NCBI GenBank assembly: GCA_050949525.1
Contig: JBMNFW010000001.1
Coordinates: forward strand, 65,078 to 129,077
Direction: 5' to 3'
Length of the DNA: 64,000 nucleotides
Source: Patescibacteria group bacterium
GTDB lineage: Bacteria > Patescibacteriota > Patescibacteriia > Patescibacteriales > UBA12465
Both the position numbers and the translations under genes were made by a program. Below are positions 17,933 through 24,436 of this stretch, in pieces (positions within the stretch are counted from its first letter, which is position 1; the number at the start of each line of letters is the position of its first letter). The notes beneath the pieces are model-generated. The model was not told the origin of the DNA and made no database searches. It saw nothing but the letters and a program-made list of their open reading frames with translations.

Positions 17933-18949
17933 ATGTTGAAGAGGAAAAAAACAAAAACTGAAGATACTAAGGCTAATGTTCCTGAGCCGGTTTTTAAGGT
18001 TCATCGAATGCCTAAGGGTTATAAAAGTGGTCGATTTGAGCCTTCGGCTTTTTCTAGTAATCCGAGCAAGGAAAAAAGTTCTGGTGGGTCTAATAAGAAG
18101 GTGGGATTACTTATTATTTCTCTAGGCTCAATAATTGTTGTTTTTCTAATTTATATAATTATTTCTTATCTTAGCCAACCTGATTTCTCTTTGGGTGGAA
18201 TTTTTAAATTTAAATCATCTAATACTGCAGTGAAACCATCTCCAGTAGTTTTGAATGAGAAAGAACCAGCTATTTCATTAATTAACGAAGAAGAGCCTGT
18301 TGTAATAGAAGAAGAGGAGGATTTAGAATTAGATTTAGATATCGAAGAGGATTTAATAATAGATGAAGAAAATAATATGGAGGAAGAAGTAGAGGTGAGT
18401 GTTTCTTTTTTAGATAGTGATGGTGATGGCTTGAGTGATCAGGAGGAAGTATTAATTGGTACTAATCCTTTAGAGTCTGACAGTGATGGTGATGGTTATG
18501 ATGATTTTACTGAAGTTTCTAATCTTTATAATCCCTTAGGTTCGGGATTATTAAAAGATAATCGCAATATTCAGGAGTTACAAGATGATAATTTGGTTTA
18601 CTCAGTTTTATATCCTTCCTCTTTAGAGCCTAGTATTTCTAATGATGGTCATAATACTCTTTTCTTTTTGGATGATAATTCTTTTATTCAAATATTATTA
18701 GAGGAAAATGAAGGGCAACAGAATATTGCCTCTTGGTATGGGTCTCGATTTTTTAGCTTTATTGATAACTCAGAAATAATAGAGAAAGATGCTTGGTCAG
18801 GATTTTATACTTCTGATGGTTCATCTTTTTATTTAGGTGATCATGATCGAAAATATGTATTTACTATATTGTATAATTTTCCGGAAAATCAAAATCCTTT
18901 ATATATGAATATTTTTAAGATGATGATTAATTCGTTTCAATTGAAATAA
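17933..18949 (+). CDS. paralogous acidic single-pass membrane protein with TSP3-like calcium-binding repeats and extra C-terminal domain
   Basis: 338 aa; TM helix VGLLIISLGSIIVVFLIYIIISYL. Acidic E/D-rich stretch, then DSDGDGLSDQEEVLIGTNPLESDSDGDGYDDFTEV. A ~160 aa C-terminal domain of unknown function. Same architecture as the preceding gene. Confidence 0.7.
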   Translation: MLKRKKTKTEDTKANVPEPVFKVHRMPKGYKSGRFEPSAFSSNPSKEKSSGGSNKKVGLLIISLGSIIVVFLIYIIISYLSQPDFSLGGIFKFKSSNTAVKPSPVVLNEKEPAISLINEEEPVVIEEEEDLELDLDIEEDLIIDEENNMEEEVEVSVSFLDSDGDGLSDQEEVLIGTNPLESDSDGDGYDDFTEVSNLYNPLGSGLLKDNRNIQELQDDNLVYSVLYPSSLEPSISNDGHNTLFFLDDNSFIQILLEENEGQQNIASWYGSRFFSFIDNSEIIEKDAWSGFYTSDGSSFYLGDHDRKYVFTILYNFPENQNPLYMNIFKMMINSFQLK

Positions 18950-19702: not shown

Positions 19703-21619
19703 ATGTCTAAGTTGAAATCGAATCTTTTTAAACAAAAAAGAAATGGCTTGATTTTCGCTTCAATTTTAATCTTTTTTGTTTTTGTGGCCTTAAAAGGAGC
19801 TGATATTTACTATAATCAGTTTTCTGATTATTTAGCTAAGAAAACTAATGATGTTATTATTTTACCTAAAATTAAGGAATCTCCCTTTCGTTTAGGACTA
19901 GATCTTCAGGGTGGAGCTCAATTAGTTTATCAAGCTGATGTGTCTCAAATTCCGGATCTTGATAAAGATGATGTTTTAGATGGAGTTCGAGATGTTATTG
20001 AAAAACGAGTTAATGCTTTTGGGGTTAGTGAGCCGATAATTCAGGTTAATAAGACTGTTGATGGTGAATATCGAATTATTGTTGAGTTAGCTGGAGTGAA
20101 GAGTGTTGAAGAGGCTATAAAGGAGATTGGGGAAACGCCTAAATTAGAGTTTAAAGAACAAGATTTAGATTCAGCTAGTTTGTCAGAAGAAGATTTAGCC
20201 TTAAAAGAAGAATATAATAATTCTTTAAAGAAAAAGGCTGAAGAGATTTATGAAAAGCTTTTAAATGGAGAAGATTTTTCATCTTTAGCTATTGCTAATA
20301 ATAGTCCAATTGTGCTTGATCCTAGTCAAGGAATTGGGGCTGAAAATGATGGTGATTTAGGTTGGATTAGCTCTAGTGACGATGCGGTTTTATATGGGAT
20401 TTTAGAAAATATTGAAATTGGTAAATTTTCTGAAATTATTGAAACTGAAGCCGATTATAATATTTTTAAGGTGGAAGATAAAAGATCATCGGTTGAAGGA
20501 GTTTTAGGTTCAGCTGAAGGAGAGGCTGAGTATAAGGTAAGGCGAATAGTTTTAAATAAGATTAGTGATCGTGATCTTTTAGAGTTTTCTGATAATTGGA
20601 AAAATACTGAATTAACTGGAAGAAATTTAAAGAAAGCGGTTTTGCAGTTTAATCCTAATACTAATGCTCCGGAAGTATCTTTAGAATTTGATGATGAAGG
20701 CGCTCAATTATTTGGTGATATTACTGAGAGAAATATTGGAAGACCAGTAGCTATTTATTTAGATGATTATGCTATTAGTGTTCCAACTGTTAATGAAAGA
20801 ATACCAGATGGTCGAGCTGTTATTTCAGGTCGTTTTAGTATCGCTGAGGCTAAAGAATTAATTCAAAGATTAAAAGCTGGAGCTTTACCAGTTCCAATTG
20901 AGTTAATAAATCAAAAAACAGTTGGTGCTAGTTTAGGAAGTCAGTCTATTCAAGATAGTTTAAAAGCTGGTATTATTGGTCTGATCTTAATCGCTCTTTT
21001 TATGATTATAGTTTATCGTTTACCAGGACTTTTATCAGTTTTCTCTTTAGTTATATATGGCTTTACTGTTTTGATTATTTTTAAATCTTTACCAGTTATT
21101 ACGGCCCTAATTATCGCTGTTTTCTTTGTGGTCATGATTTTTATAAGCTTTAATGAATTAAAAATATTGGATTTATCAATGATAGTTTTATTCCTTGTTA
21201 TTGGTATTGTTCTTTTTGTTTATAGTTTAGGTTCGGTTACCTTAACTTTAGCTGGTATTGCTGGTTTAATACTTTCAATTGGTATGGCTGTGGATGCTAA
21301 TGTTTTAATTTTTGAAAGGATGAAAGAAGAAATTCGCCAAGGTCGATCTTTAAAAAGTTCCATTGACGAGGGCATTCGTCGTTCTTGGCCTTCAATTCGC
21401 GATGGAAATATCTCTACTTTATTAACTTGTTTAGTACTAATGACTTTTGGTACCGGAGTTTTAAAAGGTTTTGGAACCACTCTTTTTATTGGGGTTTCAA
21501 TCTCTATGTTTGGTGCTATTGTTACTACTAGAGTTTTCTTAAACAAGTTTTTAGGTAAGAGGGTTGAAAAATGTCGATTTCTTTTAGGATTTAAAGTGAA
21601 ATCAGAAGAAAATAAATAA
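19703..21619 (+). CDS. secD: protein translocase subunit SecD, carrying an inserted parvulin-like (PpiC-type) PPIase-like domain in the first periplasmic region
   Basis: N-terminal TM. SecD P1 base LGLDLQGGAQLVYQAD...ELAGVKSVEEAIKEIGETPKLEFK. Then ~130 aa containing GDLGWISSSDDAVLYGILENIEIGKFSEIIETEADYNIFKVEDKR, which resembles the parvulin core (GGDLGWF...GYHIIKV). Canonical P1 head follows (LTGRNLKKAVLQFNP...GRPVAIYLDDYAISVPTV...GRFSIAEAKELIQRLKAGALPVP), then the six-TM C-terminal region. Confidence 0.9.
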   Translation: MSKLKSNLFKQKRNGLIFASILIFFVFVALKGADIYYNQFSDYLAKKTNDVIILPKIKESPFRLGLDLQGGAQLVYQADVSQIPDLDKDDVLDGVRDVIEKRVNAFGVSEPIIQVNKTVDGEYRIIVELAGVKSVEEAIKEIGETPKLEFKEQDLDSASLSEEDLALKEEYNNSLKKKAEEIYEKLLNGEDFSSLAIANNSPIVLDPSQGIGAENDGDLGWISSSDDAVLYGILENIEIGKFSEIIETEADYNIFKVEDKRSSVEGVLGSAEGEAEYKVRRIVLNKISDRDLLEFSDNWKNTELTGRNLKKAVLQFNPNTNAPEVSLEFDDEGAQLFGDITERNIGRPVAIYLDDYAISVPTVNERIPDGRAVISGRFSIAEAKELIQRLKAGALPVPIELINQKTVGASLGSQSIQDSLKAGIIGLILIALFMIIVYRLPGLLSVFSLVIYGFTVLIIFKSLPVITALIIAVFFVVMIFISFNELKILDLSMIVLFLVIGIVLFVYSLGSVTLTLAGIAGLILSIGMAVDANVLIFERMKEEIRQGRSLKSSIDEGIRRSWPSIRDGNISTLLTCLVLMTFGTGVLKGFGTTLFIGVSISMFGAIVTTRVFLNKFLGKRVEKCRFLLGFKVKSEENK

Positions 21620-21643: not shown

Positions 21644-22534
21644 ATGTTTAATCTAAATATAATAAAGTATCGTAAAATATGGCTAAGCTTATCAGGTGTT
21701 TTAGTGGTGGCTTCAATTTTAGCTTTATTTACTTGGGGTTTAAATTTTGGTATTGATTTTACTGGTGGTAGTCTTTTGGAGGTAGAATTTAAAGGTGAAG
21801 AGATTCCTAGCGTGATGGTTGTTAGAGAAAGTTTAGAAGAGTTAAGTCTAAATAGTTTGGTGGTGCAACCAACTGAAAGTGGTTCGGTTATTTTAAGATT
21901 TAAAGAGGATAGTCATGAAGTTTATCGTTCTGTTTTAGATAAGCTGAGTAGTTTATCAGAAATTGAAGAATTGCGTTATGAGTCGGTCGGACCCTCTATT
22001 GGAAAAGAGTTGAAGAATAAATCCTTTAACACTATGATTTTAGTTTTAGCTATTATCATTCTTTATATTGCTTTGGTGTTTAAAAAGGTGTCTCGACCAG
22101 TTTCTTCTTGGAAATATGGTATTGCTTCTGTTGTAGCCTTAGCTCATAATGTTATTATTGTTCTTGGAGTATTTTCTGTTTTGGGTCATTTTTGTGATAC
22201 AGAAATAAACGCGGCTTTTATCGCAGCTATTTTAACTATTCTAGGTTATAGCGTTAATGATACTATCGTTATTTTTGATCGAATTAGAGAGAATTTACCG
22301 AAGAGTCCTGATAATTTTGAGACCACGGTTAATAGGAGTATTAATCAATCTCTAACTCGTTCTATTAATACTTCTTTTACCACCCTTTTAGCTCTTTTAG
22401 CTATTATTATTTTTGGCGGAAGCTCTATTCGAGATTTTGTTTTAGCTTTAGCTATTGGAATCTTCGTTGGTGCTTATAGTTCTATATTTATTGCTAGTCC
22501 AATATTAGTTTGGTTTGAGAAAAGAAAAGCTTAG
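21644..22534 (+). CDS. secF: protein translocase subunit SecF
   Basis: 296 aa. SecF signature GIDFTGGSLLEV and six-TM C-terminal block. Immediately follows secD. Confidence 0.9.
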   Translation: MFNLNIIKYRKIWLSLSGVLVVASILALFTWGLNFGIDFTGGSLLEVEFKGEEIPSVMVVRESLEELSLNSLVVQPTESGSVILRFKEDSHEVYRSVLDKLSSLSEIEELRYESVGPSIGKELKNKSFNTMILVLAIIILYIALVFKKVSRPVSSWKYGIASVVALAHNVIIVLGVFSVLGHFCDTEINAAFIAAILTILGYSVNDTIVIFDRIRENLPKSPDNFETTVNRSINQSLTRSINTSFTTLLALLAIIIFGGSSIRDFVLALAIGIFVGAYSSIFIASPILVWFEKRKA

Positions 22535-22540
22535 GCTCAA

Positions 22541-24436
22541 ATGAAAAAACGATATTTAAATTATTTAATAGAGATTATATATTTAGGGATTATTTTTTTA
22601 ATCCCTATTTATTTTGGTTTTATTTTTCCTAGCGCTAATCCCTTTGATTTACAAAGATTAATATTGTTCAAGATCCTGTTAGGGCTTCTTTTTTTTCTAT
22701 CAGTTTTTAAGGCTTTTCTTTTAGAGTCAAGTTTGGATTTTAGGTTGAGTTTAAGAAAATTTTTTAAAAAATATTATTTAATTCCCTTATTATCATTAAT
22801 ATTCTTTTTACTTTCTCTTCTTTGGTCTTTTAATCCTAATTTATCTTGGGTCGGATCTTTAGAGCGACAATTAGGAATTAATACTTGGATTTTTTTAGGA
22901 CTTTTTTCTGTTTTATTATCCTTTAATCTTTTAAGTAGCCCAGATTTTAAAAAAAGTATTTATCGCATTTTTTTAGTTTCTGGTTTTTCGGCCACTATAG
23001 TTTCTTTATATGCTGTTTTTCAGTTCTGGGGAATTGATTTTTTATCTTGGAATGAGCCAGCTGTAATTACTAAAAGAGCTTTTTCTAGTTTAGGTCAACC
23101 TAATCTTTTAGGATCTTTTTTATTGCTTAATATTTTTATTATTCCCTATCTTTTTAAAAATACTAAGAATAAATATTTTCGTCTTTTATTTATTCTTAGT
23201 GGTGGGCTTCAGTTTTTAGCTTTATTATATTCAGCTAGTCGCGGGGCTTATTTAGGATTTTTATTTTCGCTTTTGATTTTTATTATTTATTGGTGTAGGC
23301 AGAGAAGGTTAAAATTTTTTATAGTTATTATTTTTATTGGTTTAATTTTTTTATTTCCTCGGGTTAAATCTATGGGTGGTTTTAGCTCTCGAGTTGATTT
23401 GTGGTCGGCCTCTTTGGCTGGGGTTTTAGATAATCCTTGGGGTTATGGTTTAGAAAATCAAAAAGAGGTTTTTATTAATTATTATCAACCTGATTGGGGA
23501 GTGTTTAATAAAGTGAATGTTGTTTTTGATCGAGCTCATAATTTTATTTTAGATACTTTATTGGTCGGAGGTTTTGTAGCATTAGCTTTATTAATGGCTT
23601 GGTTATTGTTTACTTATAAAATGTTGGTTAGTAATATAAGAAAGAGGGAGGACGGAGGGTTGTCACTTAGCTTAACTTTAGCTTTTACTTCATTTTTTAT
23701 ATCTTTATTGTTTGGTTTTGGTAGTTTTGTGTCTTTACTTTATTTAGTTAGTTTTTTTTCTATTATTAGCGTTAATGATTATCAATCTAAGAAAGAAGTA
23801 TTTTCTTTAATAGAGGAGCAAAAATTAAAATTTCATCATCAAATATTTTTAATAACATTAGCTTTAGTTTTGGGAACTTTCTTTTTTCGTGAGATTAATA
23901 AATTGAAATCTGATTATTACTTTTATGTTGGTCAAAGATATTTTTATCAAAATCAAGTTTCTAGCGCTATTATAAGTTTTTCTTATTTAAGACAAAATTC
24001 ATTAGTAAATCGAGAGTATTATTATCAGATTGCTAATTTATTTTTTGATAATTATTCTAAATTTCCCGATCAGGCTACTCGTTTCCTGGCTCAAGAAGAA
24101 TTAAAAGAGATAGCTTATGTTCTAGATAAGAGCATTAAGAAATCTTTTACTGATCAAGTTTTTTGGGCTCAGGTTTATAGCATCCTGGGTAAAGAGCAGT
24201 CTTCTCAAGCGTTGTTTGATGTTTTAATATCTCGATCTCCGTTTTATCCCTTATTATATTATCGTCAAGCTCAGGCTCATCTTTTTGCTGGCAACAAAGA
24301 ATTAGCTTTGGTTAATTATTATAAGGTTTTAGAGTTATTGCCAGTTAAAGAAAATATTGAGGGTGATATAAATCTAAGAGCTTATGAAGAGTTTAAAGCT
24401 TTAATATTAGAGGAAATTAATAATTTAGACTTATAA
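22541..24436 (+). CDS. O-antigen ligase (Wzy_C) family polytopic membrane protein with C-terminal TPR-like region
   Basis: 631 aa, about 10 TM helices. Wzy_C-type motifs YSASRGAYLGF and RAHNFILDTLLVGGF. C-terminal ~200 aa soluble helical repeats (TPR-like). Confidence 0.7.
   Translation: MKKRYLNYLIEIIYLGIIFLIPIYFGFIFPSANPFDLQRLILFKILLGLLFFLSVFKAFLLESSLDFRLSLRKFFKKYYLIPLLSLIFFLLSLLWSFNPNLSWVGSLERQLGINTWIFLGLFSVLLSFNLLSSPDFKKSIYRIFLVSGFSATIVSLYAVFQFWGIDFLSWNEPAVITKRAFSSLGQPNLLGSFLLLNIFIIPYLFKNTKNKYFRLLFILSGGLQFLALLYSASRGAYLGFLFSLLIFIIYWCRQRRLKFFIVIIFIGLIFLFPRVKSMGGFSSRVDLWSASLAGVLDNPWGYGLENQKEVFINYYQPDWGVFNKVNVVFDRAHNFILDTLLVGGFVALALLMAWLLFTYKMLVSNIRKREDGGLSLSLTLAFTSFFISLLFGFGSFVSLLYLVSFFSIISVNDYQSKKEVFSLIEEQKLKFHHQIFLITLALVLGTFFFREINKLKSDYYFYVGQRYFYQNQVSSAIISFSYLRQNSLVNREYYYQIANLFFDNYSKFPDQATRFLAQEELKEIAYVLDKSIKKSFTDQVFWAQVYSILGKEQSSQALFDVLISRSPFYPLLYYRQAQAHLFAGNKELALVNYYKVLELLPVKENIEGDINLRAYEEFKALILEEINNLDL

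What the first reader, a model, noticed from the sequence alone, without database searches (positions are those of the whole stretch)
20150..20560. SecD carries an inserted parvulin-like PPIase domain
Between the conserved P1-base motif (...PKLEFK) and the conserved P1-head (LTGRNLK...) of SecD there is a ~130-aa insertion. Its core GDLGWISSSDDAVLYGILENIEIGKFSEIIETEADYNIFKVEDKR parallels the PpiC/parvulin signature (GGDLGWF...G.IS.PV.T.FGYHIIKV). A folding catalyst fused directly into the periplasmic head of the translocon motor would couple translocation to folding. In most bacteria the chaperones PpiD/YfgM only associate with SecDF non-covalently. The segment is also very acidic before the parvulin core, so catalytic competence is uncertain.
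Basis: partly seen in the sequence, partly recalled or inferred. Interest (0 to 1): 0.55.

Follow-up and report, generated by a model that had tools for sequence, protein, structure and literature searches.

The report
SecD with built-in permuted parvulin domain
The SecD subunit of this bacterium's protein-export motor carries an extra, rearranged and probably enzymatically dead copy of a parvulin protein-folding domain, which makes covalent a link between export and folding helpers that is only non-covalent in model bacteria.

Summary
The 638-aa SecD (window 19703-21619) has about 145 residues (aa 154-298) between the P1-base strand LEFKE and the first P1-head strand. Solved SecDFs and some close relatives have only 20-60 residues there. 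The stretch passes Pfam's Rotamase and Rotamase_3 gathering thresholds.

1. The insert is a family trait of Patescibacteria SecD. It occurs as single intact, two-unit, single degenerate (this window), motif-less and absent forms.
2. The domain is circularly permuted. It starts at helix 1, and the strand that normally opens a parvulin (..HILI..) follows the last strand. Relatives align across the junction of a tandemly duplicated canonical parvulin. In the window this rests on homology and an AlphaFold strand (aa 275-285).
3. The window's copy lacks the catalytic residues. Neither histidine position holds His in any of 55 close relatives, yet GDLGW is invariant.

It is most likely a non-catalytic, PpiD-like binding or holdase module at the P1 base-head junction. 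That function is inferred, not shown. I found no paper describing this architecture, although databases already tag these proteins with both domains. I rate it a new variant of known kinds, of moderate interest.

The parts
19703..21619 (+). secD gene, 638 aa
   Evidence: ORF. TIGR01129 scores 367 bits against a cutoff of 244. Pfam finds SecD_1st, SecDF_P1_head and SecD_SecF_C. The full-length AF2 model's best PDB matches are SecDF 5yhf, 5xan and 3aqp.
19868..20161 (+). N-terminal part of the P1 base (aa 56-153), ending in the conserved strand LEFKE (aa 148-153)
   Evidence: Pfam SecD_1st at aa 94-154. Aligns to 3AQP residues 30-124. AF2 strand E148-153.
20162..20596 (+). Inserted parvulin-like domain (aa 154-298): acidic linker, helices, GDLGW strand, helix, beta-hairpin and short exit helix
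   Evidence: Rotamase and Rotamase_3 above gathering. Absent from solved SecDFs and from class D relatives. The AF2 crop model has pLDDT 80.8, with 87 residues at or above 90.
20186..20263 (+). Long helix (aa 162-187). Its C-terminal part (from about aa 169) matches parvulin helix 1, where the Pfam match starts at profile position 12
   Evidence: AF2 H162-187. Rotamase match covers aa 169-259 and profile positions 12-97.
20351..20368 (+). GDLGWI strand, the parvulin signature (strand 2)
   Evidence: G217, L219, G220 and W221 are invariant in 55/55 class A relatives and D218 in 52/55. AF2 strand E218-222.
20453..20488 (+). Strand DYNIFKVEDKRS, the parvulin last strand (strand 4), with Asn253 in place of the catalytic His (Pin1 His157)
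   Evidence: Aligns to ..GYHIIK.. of PrsA and of relatives. AF2 strand E251-262. This column is never His in class A.
20525..20557 (+). Strand AEYKVRRIVLN, the displaced parvulin strand 1 placed after strand 4, with Arg281 in place of the first catalytic His (Pin1 His59)
   Evidence: It is homologous in the alignment to EYKISHIFI and EVRSRHILI of relatives. In those relatives the strand matches the start of the parvulin profile only when moved to the front, and it aligns to strand 1 of the second copy of a duplicated canonical parvulin. AF2 strand E275-285 has block pLDDT up to 94. It is among the best conserved parts of the insert. It is absent from relatives without the insert.
20597..20923 (+). 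P1 head and return to the base (aa 299-407)
   Evidence: Pfam SecDF_P1_head at aa 300-397, 101 bits. Aligns to 3AQP residues 145-311.
21080..21232 (+). Extra pair of hydrophobic helices between TM2 and TM3 of SecD (aa ~460-510). This is a second lineage-specific insertion, separate from the parvulin
   Evidence: It has no counterpart in 3AQP or 5XAN. AF2 H465-486 and H491-509 have pLDDT 85-89. It is present in most of the 120 close relatives but not in P0101 or in seven more distant GTDB loci.
21644..22534 (+). secF, the partner subunit, 24 nt downstream
   Evidence: Pfam SecD_SecF_C 202 bits plus Sec_GG.

Best explanation
The SecD subunit of this Patescibacteria-type SecDF motor carries a parvulin-fold domain of about 145 aa. 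The domain is spliced into the connector between the P1 base and the P1 head, which is the mobile extracytoplasmic element thought to grip and pull emerging preproteins.

The domain is a circular permutant. The chain enters at parvulin helix 1 and runs through the GDLGW strand and the last strand. It then turns back in a hairpin to supply the strand that normally comes first, and exits into the P1 head.

In this protein the catalytic positions are substituted:
- First His becomes Arg281.
- Second His becomes Asn253.
- The Ser/Thr position becomes Ala250.
- The Cys/Asp loop is replaced by a longer hydrophobic loop.

It is therefore most probably not a prolyl isomerase. I infer that it acts like the inactive parvulin domains of PpiD and SurA-P1, as a tethered binding surface or holdase. 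In that role it would meet the unfolded chain next to the P1 head, limit back-sliding or aggregation, and perhaps modulate head movement. Relatives with intact active sites probably also isomerise prolyl bonds as the chain emerges.

Shown: domain identity, insertion site, distribution among relatives, loss of catalytic residues, and conservation of fold-determining motifs. Permutation is shown for relatives and inferred by homology plus a predicted strand for the window. Substrate binding or holdase function, and any effect on P1 movement, are inferred only.
For: Identity and site:
- Rotamase and Rotamase_3 score above gathering between SecD_1st and SecDF_P1_head.
- About 145 residues separate the conserved flanking blocks, against about 35 in 3AQP.

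Family trait:
- Among the 119 aligned sequences (the window protein plus 118 of its best 120 homologues), 55 have one GDLGW-bearing unit, 20 have two units, 37 have a same-length motif-less insert and 7 have none.
- The named homologues are Patescibacteria or Falkowbacteria.
- 12 of 16 GTDB loci are labelled as Patescibacteria lineages.

Permutation:
- The Pfam match starts at profile position 12 of 97.
- Single-unit relatives read LEFK-linker-helix1...FGYHII-loop-EVxxRHILI-head.
- Their inserts align across the junction of a duplicated canonical parvulin, gaining +23, +32 and +26 in score.
- Moving the trailing strand to the front extends profile coverage to position 1, with +13.5 bits for P0055 unit 2 and +3.4 bits for L004. 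A reversed-strand control for L004 gives no gain.
- AF2 predicts strands 251-262 and 275-285 joined by a low-confidence 12-residue loop.
- The trailing strand is highly conserved and is missing in insert-less relatives.

Inactivity:
- In 55 class A sequences the His59-equivalent column holds mainly E, Q, R, S or K, and the His157-equivalent column mainly S, K, T, A or N. Neither is ever His.

Maintenance:
- G, L, G and W of GDLGW are invariant in 55/55 and D in 52/55.
- The insert is 45% identical within class A, against 81-82% for the flanking P1 parts.

Structure:
- The best PDB Foldseek match of the excised model is a PPIase (8hm4_A, probability 1.00). PpiD-YfgM is at rank 7.

Functional analogy from the literature:
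- PpiD has an inactive parvulin domain, contacts chains leaving SecY and improves release (PMC8082313, PMC9643414).
- PrsA-like PPIase lipoproteins form a dome over the Sec translocon, including SecDF, in Mycoplasma (10.1101/2025.04.25.650208), and Mpn444 cross-links to SecD (10.1101/2024.09.05.611430).
Against: - No experiment or contact map was available, and model coordinates could not be inspected. Pairing of strand 275-285 with strand 251-262 inside the parvulin sheet is therefore not directly seen.
- For the window's own sequence, the re-permutation test gave no gain (35.4 to 34.9 bits) and the tandem-duplicate test gave +2 only.
- The insert evolves about twice as fast as its flanks.
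- Related SecDs have lost the signature motif or the whole insert. This is equally what a dispensable, decaying domain would look like.
- Substrate binding by this domain is untested.
Confidence: 0.55

Rival explanations
1. The insert is a working prolyl isomerase, so this SecD itself catalyses cis/trans isomerisation of chains as they leave SecYEG.
For: - The domain passes the Rotamase thresholds.
- Single-unit and two-unit relatives keep the full Par10/PrsA-type residue set: S-x-D, GG(D/E)LG, M..F, T-x-F-G-Y-H and the H-I-L strand.
- A preprint reports that Pin1 tolerates Asn at one catalytic histidine position (cited in 10.1101/2024.09.05.611430). The window has Asn253 at the position I assign to Pin1 His157.
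Against: - All four catalytic positions are changed in the window.
- The two His columns are variable and never His in 55 relatives, so no alternative conserved catalytic constellation exists.
- The M..F proline-pocket segment is replaced.
- The Cys/Asp loop is 6-7 residues longer.
Confidence: 0.1
2. The insert is a decaying relic or a mere spacer. An ancestral active parvulin lost its function and is tolerated at a permissive loop, on its way to deletion, with no role in substrate handling.
For: - Close relatives show a graded series: two units, one degenerate unit, a same-length insert without GDLGW, and a 21-63-aa acidic linker.
- The insert is 45% identical against 81-82% for the flanks.
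- Catalytic residues are lost.
Against: - G, L, G and W of GDLGW are invariant in 55/55 and D in 52/55. The trailing EYKV..I.L strand is 80-95% conserved across 45 distinct class A inserts.
- The length is kept at 132-150 aa even in motif-less forms.
- AF2 folds it with high confidence.
- These points indicate continued selection for a folded domain.
Confidence: 0.25
3. The insert mainly tunes the mechanics of the motor, or anchors SecDF to another envelope component (cell wall, S-layer or a partner protein), rather than touching substrates.
For: - It lies in one of the two base-head connectors, where the head rotates (PMC8082313).
- It is strongly acidic, with 34 D+E against 14 K+R.
- The same lineage also added two transmembrane helices to SecD, which suggests broader remodelling of the machine.
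Against: - Nothing specific points to a partner.
- Relatives keep a complete PPIase active site at the same position, which argues that the ancestral role was on polypeptide substrates.
Confidence: 0.1

Closest known systems
SecDF of Thermus thermophilus and Deinococcus radiodurans (PDB 3AQP, 5YHF, 5XAN, 5XAM) and E. coli SecD (5MG3)
   Same: - Same family: TIGR01129 above cutoff, P1 base and head, C-terminal SecD_SecF_C bundle with the conserved AVDAN aspartate, and adjacent SecF.
- Presumably the same proton-driven pulling by P1-head rotation (PMC8082313).
   Different: - The solved proteins have only about 35 residues between the LEFR strand and the head. Here about 145 residues form a parvulin-like domain.
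- There is also an extra helical hairpin between TM2 and TM3.
E. coli PpiD (with YfgM), a membrane-anchored chaperone at SecYEG with an inactive parvulin domain
   Same: - It has a parvulin domain lacking catalytic residues, placed at the exit of the translocon.
- PpiD is the best NCBIfam PPIase match of the insert, appears in the PDB sequence hits (2KGJ), and PpiD-YfgM is Foldseek hit 7.
- Its proposed role is to receive emerging chains and prevent back-sliding (PMC8082313, PMC9643414).
   Different: - PpiD is a separate protein with its own TM anchor and a SurA-like N/C chaperone module. It binds SecY non-covalently.
- Here there is no chaperone module, the parvulin is covalently inside SecD, and its strand order is permuted.
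PrsA of Bacillus subtilis and the PrsA-like Mdp/Mpn444 'dome' of Mycoplasma pneumoniae
   Same: - These are extracytoplasmic parvulin foldases of monoderm or wall-less, genome-reduced bacteria that act on Sec substrates.
- PrsA gives the best PDB sequence matches of the insert (4WO7, 1ZK6).
- The Mycoplasma proteins sit physically on the Sec translocon and cross-link to SecD (10.1101/2025.04.25.650208, 10.1101/2024.09.05.611430).
   Different: - Those are separate lipoproteins with N/C chaperone domains and, for PrsA and Mpn444, catalytic residues.
- The association with SecDF is non-covalent.
- Their parvulin has the canonical strand order.
Single-unit and two-unit SecD-parvulin proteins of other Patescibacteria (loci L001-L016; P0055-type proteins)
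   Same: - The insertion site and the permuted layout are the same.
- The window's core is most similar to unit 1 of the two-unit forms: median 32.7 bits, against 17.1 for unit 2 and 18.2 for single intact units.
   Different: - Those keep one catalytically complete parvulin.
- The window keeps only the degenerate unit.

Membership tests
SecD (protein translocase subunit; TIGR01129, RND superfamily) | Full-length match to the SecD equivalog-domain model above its curated cutoff | tested here: met
   TIGR01129 scores 367.2 bits against a cutoff of 244.4.
SecD (protein translocase subunit; TIGR01129, RND superfamily) | Extracytoplasmic P1 domain with base and head subdomains between TM1 and TM2 | tested here: met
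   SecD_1st scores 60 bits and SecDF_P1_head 101 bits. It aligns to the isolated P1 domain 3AQO. Foldseek gives TM-score 0.62-0.64 (normalised to the target) against 3aqo.
SecD (protein translocase subunit; TIGR01129, RND superfamily) | C-terminal helical bundle with the conserved membrane-embedded Asp (AVDAN motif) and a SecF partner | tested here: met
   SecD_SecF_C match. D531 is invariant in 119 sequences. secF lies 24 nt downstream.
SecD (protein translocase subunit; TIGR01129, RND superfamily) | Proton-motive-force-dependent stimulation of translocation | not testable with these tools
   This needs biochemistry.
Parvulin / PpiC-type PPIase domain (Pfam PF00639, PF13616) | Profile match above the gathering threshold | tested here: met
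   PF00639 scores 30.3 bits (whole protein) and 34-35.4 bits (excised) against 21.7. PF13616 scores 29-33.7 bits against 22.5.
Parvulin / PpiC-type PPIase domain (Pfam PF00639, PF13616) | Parvulin fold (four-stranded antiparallel sheet with helices) | tested here: inconclusive
Parvulin / PpiC-type PPIase domain (Pfam PF00639, PF13616) | Canonical order of elements, with strand 1 (the ..H-I-L.. strand) at the N-terminus | tested here: not met
   The profile match starts at position 12 of 97, and no strand-1-like segment precedes helix 1. The strand-1 homologue follows strand 4. The domain is therefore a circular permutant.
Parvulin / PpiC-type PPIase domain (Pfam PF00639, PF13616) | Catalytic residues (Pin1 His59, Cys113 or Asp, Ser154/Thr152, His157) | tested here: not met
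   Window residues are Arg281, a hydrophobic extended loop, Ala250 (Thr248 is kept) and Asn253. The His columns are never His in 55 relatives. The Pin1 numbering equivalence is assigned from my knowledge of the Pin1, Par10 and PrsA sequences.
Parvulin / PpiC-type PPIase domain (Pfam PF00639, PF13616) | Measured peptidyl-prolyl isomerase activity | not testable with these tools
   This needs an enzyme assay.
PpiD / SurA / PrsA-type chaperones | Parvulin domain inserted into a SurA-like N-/C-terminal chaperone module | tested here: not met
   No SurA_N-type or other chaperone-module family appears in the Pfam list, which runs to E of 10. PpiD, SurA and PrsA NCBIfam models score 12-26 bits against cutoffs of 343-493. 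The host scaffold is SecD P1.

The most novel reading that the evidence does not exclude
In Patescibacteria the SecDF motor has absorbed the extracytoplasmic foldase. A circularly permuted parvulin, catalytically complete in many lineages, is built into the P1 base-head hinge. Pulling of the chain and prolyl isomerisation or holding would then happen on one polypeptide, possibly replacing separate PrsA/PpiD-type factors in these minimal genomes. The window's protein would be a derived member that kept only the substrate-holding function. The two-unit relatives would preserve the duplication or nesting intermediate by which the permutation arose.
Probability: 0.4. Interest if true: 0.75.

Novelty: new variant of a known kind. 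Interest (0 to 1): 0.58.

Why it matters
How SecDF hands emerging chains to extracytoplasmic chaperones is still unsettled. In E. coli the link is indirect, through PpiD/YfgM and SurA at SecYEG. In Mycoplasma it is a large non-covalent dome.

A natural covalent fusion is "Rosetta-stone" evidence that a parvulin module works at the P1 domain of SecDF. It also gives a compact, genetically tractable object to test this. Active, inactive, doubled and absent versions exist in otherwise more than 50% identical SecDs.

It appears to be an undescribed circular permutation of the parvulin fold, with apparent evolutionary intermediates still extant. It also flags an annotation problem: the same family is variously named peptidylprolyl isomerase, MMPL transporter or SecD.

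Tried and rejected
- **Re-permutation of the window's own insert.** I moved aa 273-288 to the front and rescanned Pfam. There was no gain (35.4 to 34.9 bits) and no difference from a reversed-strand control. The window's trailing strand is too diverged to prove permutation by sequence alone. The test worked on relatives.
- **Tandem-duplicate alignment for the window.** It gave +2 only, against +23 to +32 for relatives.
- **Exhaustive phmmer of the insert against 1.84 billion cluster representatives.** It found 250 hits at E of 1e-3 or better. These were mostly proteins of 420-460 aa with two matched stretches (SurA-like by size, not checked). Of 24 listed proteins of 550-700 aa that I inspected, one was a SecD. 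This search is therefore not usable to count the family.
- **Genome-collection scan.** Distribution figures are minimum sightings, not frequencies.
- **LEFKE as parvulin strand 1.** Rejected. The strand is conserved in all SecDs, including those without an insert, and belongs to the P1 base.
- **The trailing strand as part of the P1 head.** Rejected. Insert-less relatives have no counterpart, and the head Pfam match begins at aa 300.
- **Assembly chimera.** Rejected. The same architecture occurs in dozens of independent clusters and contigs.
- **Another parvulin gene in the window.** None was found in the 64-kb window. This says nothing about the rest of the genome.
- **Literature.** Seven searches found no description of a SecD-parvulin fusion or of a permuted parvulin. 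The library does not cover subscription journals.
Full report
**The gene and the observation**

The window is AT-rich (about 29-35% G+C) with uniformly positive GC skew. The ORF 19703..21619 (+) encodes a 638-aa protein. It is unambiguously SecD:
- TIGR01129 scores 367 bits against a cutoff of 244.
- Pfam finds SecD_1st at aa 94-154, SecDF_P1_head at aa 300-397 and SecD_SecF_C.
- secF follows 24 nt downstream.
- The best PDB matches of the full-length AlphaFold model are the SecDF crystal structures 5yhf, 5xan and 3aqp.

Neighbouring genes are a divergently transcribed clpP, an upstream acidic TSP3-repeat protein and a downstream Wzy_C-type protein.

Between the two P1 Pfam domains, Pfam finds Rotamase (aa 169-259, 30.3 bits, gathering 21.7, E 8.6e-7) and Rotamase_3 (29 bits, gathering 22.5). 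On the excised stretch these rise to 34 and 32.6 bits.

In the phmmer alignment to T. thermophilus SecDF, the conserved blocks on either side enclose about 145 residues here and about 35 in 3AQP. PrsA, PpiD and SurA parvulin domains are the only meaningful PDB sequence matches of the excised stretch.

**Distribution**

The best 120 homologues in the 5.8-billion-protein collection share 47-100% identity over the aligned part. Where named, they are Patescibacteria or Falkowbacteria. I aligned 118 of them with the window protein (119 sequences in all) and they fall into four classes.

| Class | Insert | Count |
|---|---|---|
| A | One unit with GDLGW, 140-156 aa (includes the window) | 55 |
| B | Two parvulin units, about 247 aa | 20 |
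| C | Similar length (131-142 aa), signature lost, no Pfam hit | 37 |
| D | Only a 21-63-aa acidic linker | 7 |

It still returned 16 loci from MAGs labelled Parcubacteria, Komeili-, Buchanan-, Moran- and Magasanikbacteria and unclassified Patescibacteria.
- Seven loci carry a single unit with a complete Par10/PrsA-type residue set.
- Nine loci carry two units.
- Four loci come from MAGs labelled otherwise (Lysobacteraceae, Binatia, two Gammaproteobacteria). The Lysobacteraceae contig has 30% G+C and is surely mis-binned. The others are unresolved, but their SecDs are 50-53% identical to the Patescibacteria two-unit forms.

Solved SecDFs from Thermus, Deinococcus and E. coli lack the insert. 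It is lineage-specific.

**Circular permutation**

The Pfam match begins only at profile position 12. Nothing resembling the first parvulin strand precedes helix 1.

The single-unit relatives read: LEFK, a 15-20-aa linker, helix 1, S-x-D-P-G-S...GG(D/E)LG...T-x-F-G-Y-H-I-I, a short loop, then E-V-x-x-R-H-I-L-I, then the P1 head. The hallmark strand-1 motif therefore sits after strand 4.

Two tests support this.
1. **Tandem-duplicate alignment.** The native inserts of L004, L002 and L011 were aligned to a canonical stand-alone parvulin (P0247) and to that parvulin duplicated in tandem. The alignments run from helix 1 of copy 1 through strand 4 into strand 1 of copy 2. Scores rise from 140, 127 and 142 to 163, 159 and 168.
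2. **Re-permutation in Pfam.** Placing the trailing strand in front extends Pfam coverage to profile position 1. The gain is +13.5 bits (Rotamase_3) for unit 2 of P0055 and +3.4 bits for L004, with no gain for a reversed control on L004.

For the window's own sequence both tests are silent. Its trailing strand AEYKVRRIVLN (aa 275-285) has lost the histidine and is separated by a longer loop. Four observations still support the assignment:
- The strand aligns column-for-column with EYKISHIFI and EVRSRHILI of relatives.
- It is one of the most conserved stretches of the insert in 45 distinct class A sequences.
- It has no counterpart in insert-less relatives.
- AlphaFold predicts an 11-residue strand right after the 12-residue strand 251-262. 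The two are joined by a loop with pLDDT below 50, while the strand itself reaches block pLDDT 94 in the excised model.

I could not inspect coordinates. The pairing itself is therefore inferred.

**Evolutionary series**

Histidine occupancy in the 25 distinct two-unit inserts is as follows.

| Element | His present |
|---|---|
| Strand after the first core | 25/25 |
| Strand 4 of unit 2 | 25/25 |
| Strand 4 of unit 1 | 1/25 |
| Trailing strand | 15/25 |

This pattern fits best a canonical, always-intact parvulin nested in the strand 4-strand 1 hairpin of an outer, permuted, degenerating one. A tandem of two permuted units is not excluded.

The window's core resembles unit 1 (median 32.7 bits) more than unit 2 (17.1 bits) or the single intact units (18.2 bits). 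The window's form therefore looks like a two-unit protein that lost the catalytic inner unit. The polarity of these steps was not tested with a rooted tree.

**Catalytic competence**

I aligned the insert with PrsA and PpiD and with the intact relatives, using the Pin1/Par10 residue roles from established knowledge. The window has the following substitutions.

| Pin1 position | Window residue |
|---|---|
| His59 | Arg281 |
| His157 | Asn253 |
| Ser154 | Ala250 |
| Thr152 | Thr248 (kept) |
| Ser-x-Cys/Asp loop | Longer, largely hydrophobic loop (NNSPIVLDPSQGIGAEN) |
| Met/Phe proline-pocket segment after GDLGW | Replaced |

Across the 55 class A sequences the two histidine columns are never His and are not conserved. 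The most frequent residues are E31, Q10, R6, S3, K2 in one column and S16, K15, T7, A7, N4 in the other. GDLGW is essentially invariant.

The insert is 45% identical within class A, against 81-82% for the flanking P1 segments. The picture is a maintained fold with an abandoned active site. This is the situation documented for the parvulin domain of PpiD (PMC8082313).

**Mechanism**

SecDF is thought to use the proton-motive force to rotate the P1 head, which binds the emerging preprotein, and so to pull it out of SecYEG (PMC8082313). The insert occupies one of the two polypeptide connections between the static base and the mobile head.

Precedents for a parvulin module at this place are all non-covalent:
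- PpiD/YfgM contacts chains leaving SecY and improves their release (PMC9643414, PMC8082313).
- PrsA-like lipoproteins form a dome over the Sec translocon, including SecDF, in Mycoplasma pneumoniae (10.1101/2025.04.25.650208).
- One of these lipoproteins, Mpn444, has measured PPIase activity and cross-links to SecD (10.1101/2024.09.05.611430).

I therefore propose that the Patescibacteria insert is the covalent version of this arrangement. In lineages with intact sites it would be a foldase. In this window's protein it would be a catalytically silent holdase or binding surface.

The main rival is that the domain here is a tolerated relic. The graded loss series supports that rival. The strict conservation of fold-determining motifs and of insert length argues against it. 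An active enzyme with unconventional residues is unlikely, and a purely mechanical or anchoring role cannot be excluded.

**Novelty**

Databases already record both domains on these proteins. NCBI names many of them 'peptidylprolyl isomerase', and others 'MMPL family transporter' or 'SecD'. The architecture is therefore visible, but inconsistently annotated.

Seven full-text searches found no paper describing a SecD-parvulin fusion, its distribution or a permuted parvulin. The library lacks most subscription-journal papers.

I class it as a new variant of known kinds (SecDF, and translocon-associated parvulin chaperones), of moderate interest. The window's copy is the degenerate form. The family as a whole is the more interesting object.

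**Limits**

- The representative-library search was uninformative for counting the family.
- The genome scan was truncated.
- The absence of other foldases could be checked only within the 64-kb window.

Noticed in passing
window 21080-21232 (SecD aa ~460-510): A second lineage-specific insertion in SecD adds two hydrophobic helices (AF2 H465-486 and H491-509, pLDDT 85-89) between TM2 and TM3, which would give SecD 8 rather than 6 TM helices. It is absent from solved SecDFs, from P0101 and from seven more distant Patescibacteria loci (45-50 aa against 92-93 aa between the YRLPG and AVDAN motifs).
   Followed up: partly
window 17933-18949 (+): A 338-aa protein with one TM segment, a very acidic low-complexity region and a bacterial thrombospondin type-3 (TSP3_bac) calcium-binding repeat. 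It is probably a surface protein.
   Followed up: partly
window 22541-24436 (+): A 631-aa polytopic Wzy_C (O-antigen ligase-like) protein starts 7 nt after the secF stop, so it is probably co-transcribed with secDF. A terminator-like hairpin at 22584-22607 lies inside its 5' end.
   Followed up: no
loci L001, L003, L007, L009, L010, L012-L014, L016; proteins P0055-P0123 (two-unit forms): In the two-unit SecD relatives the inner parvulin is always catalytically complete, with both His present in 25/25. In most of them it carries a Cys...Cys pair just after its first strand (HLLICYEGxxNCE), possibly a disulfide. The outer unit is degenerate. This pattern suggests a canonical parvulin nested in the hairpin of a permuted one.
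   Followed up: partly
L004 (JAACEG010000012.1), L007 (DATJFD010000021.1), L012, L014: Contigs with the Patescibacteria-type SecD-parvulin gene sit in MAGs labelled Lysobacteraceae (contig 30% G+C, almost certainly mis-binned), Binatia (64% G+C) and Gammaproteobacteria (47% G+C). Either these are binning errors or the architecture extends beyond Patescibacteria.
   Followed up: partly
homologue table (P0005, P0013, P0028, P0069, P0094 and others): Public annotation of one and the same protein family is inconsistent. Names include 'peptidylprolyl isomerase', 'MMPL family transporter', 'protein translocase subunit SecD' and 'hypothetical protein'.
   Followed up: no
window 1-64000: GC skew is positive in every 2-kb bin and the cumulative skew rises monotonically, so the whole window lies on one replichore with no origin or terminus. 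All the genes examined except clpP are on the + strand.
   Followed up: no
window 21220-21546 (-): A 108-aa TTG-initiated ORF lies antisense inside secD. It is most likely spurious, since it lies wholly within the conserved SecD TM region.
   Followed up: no
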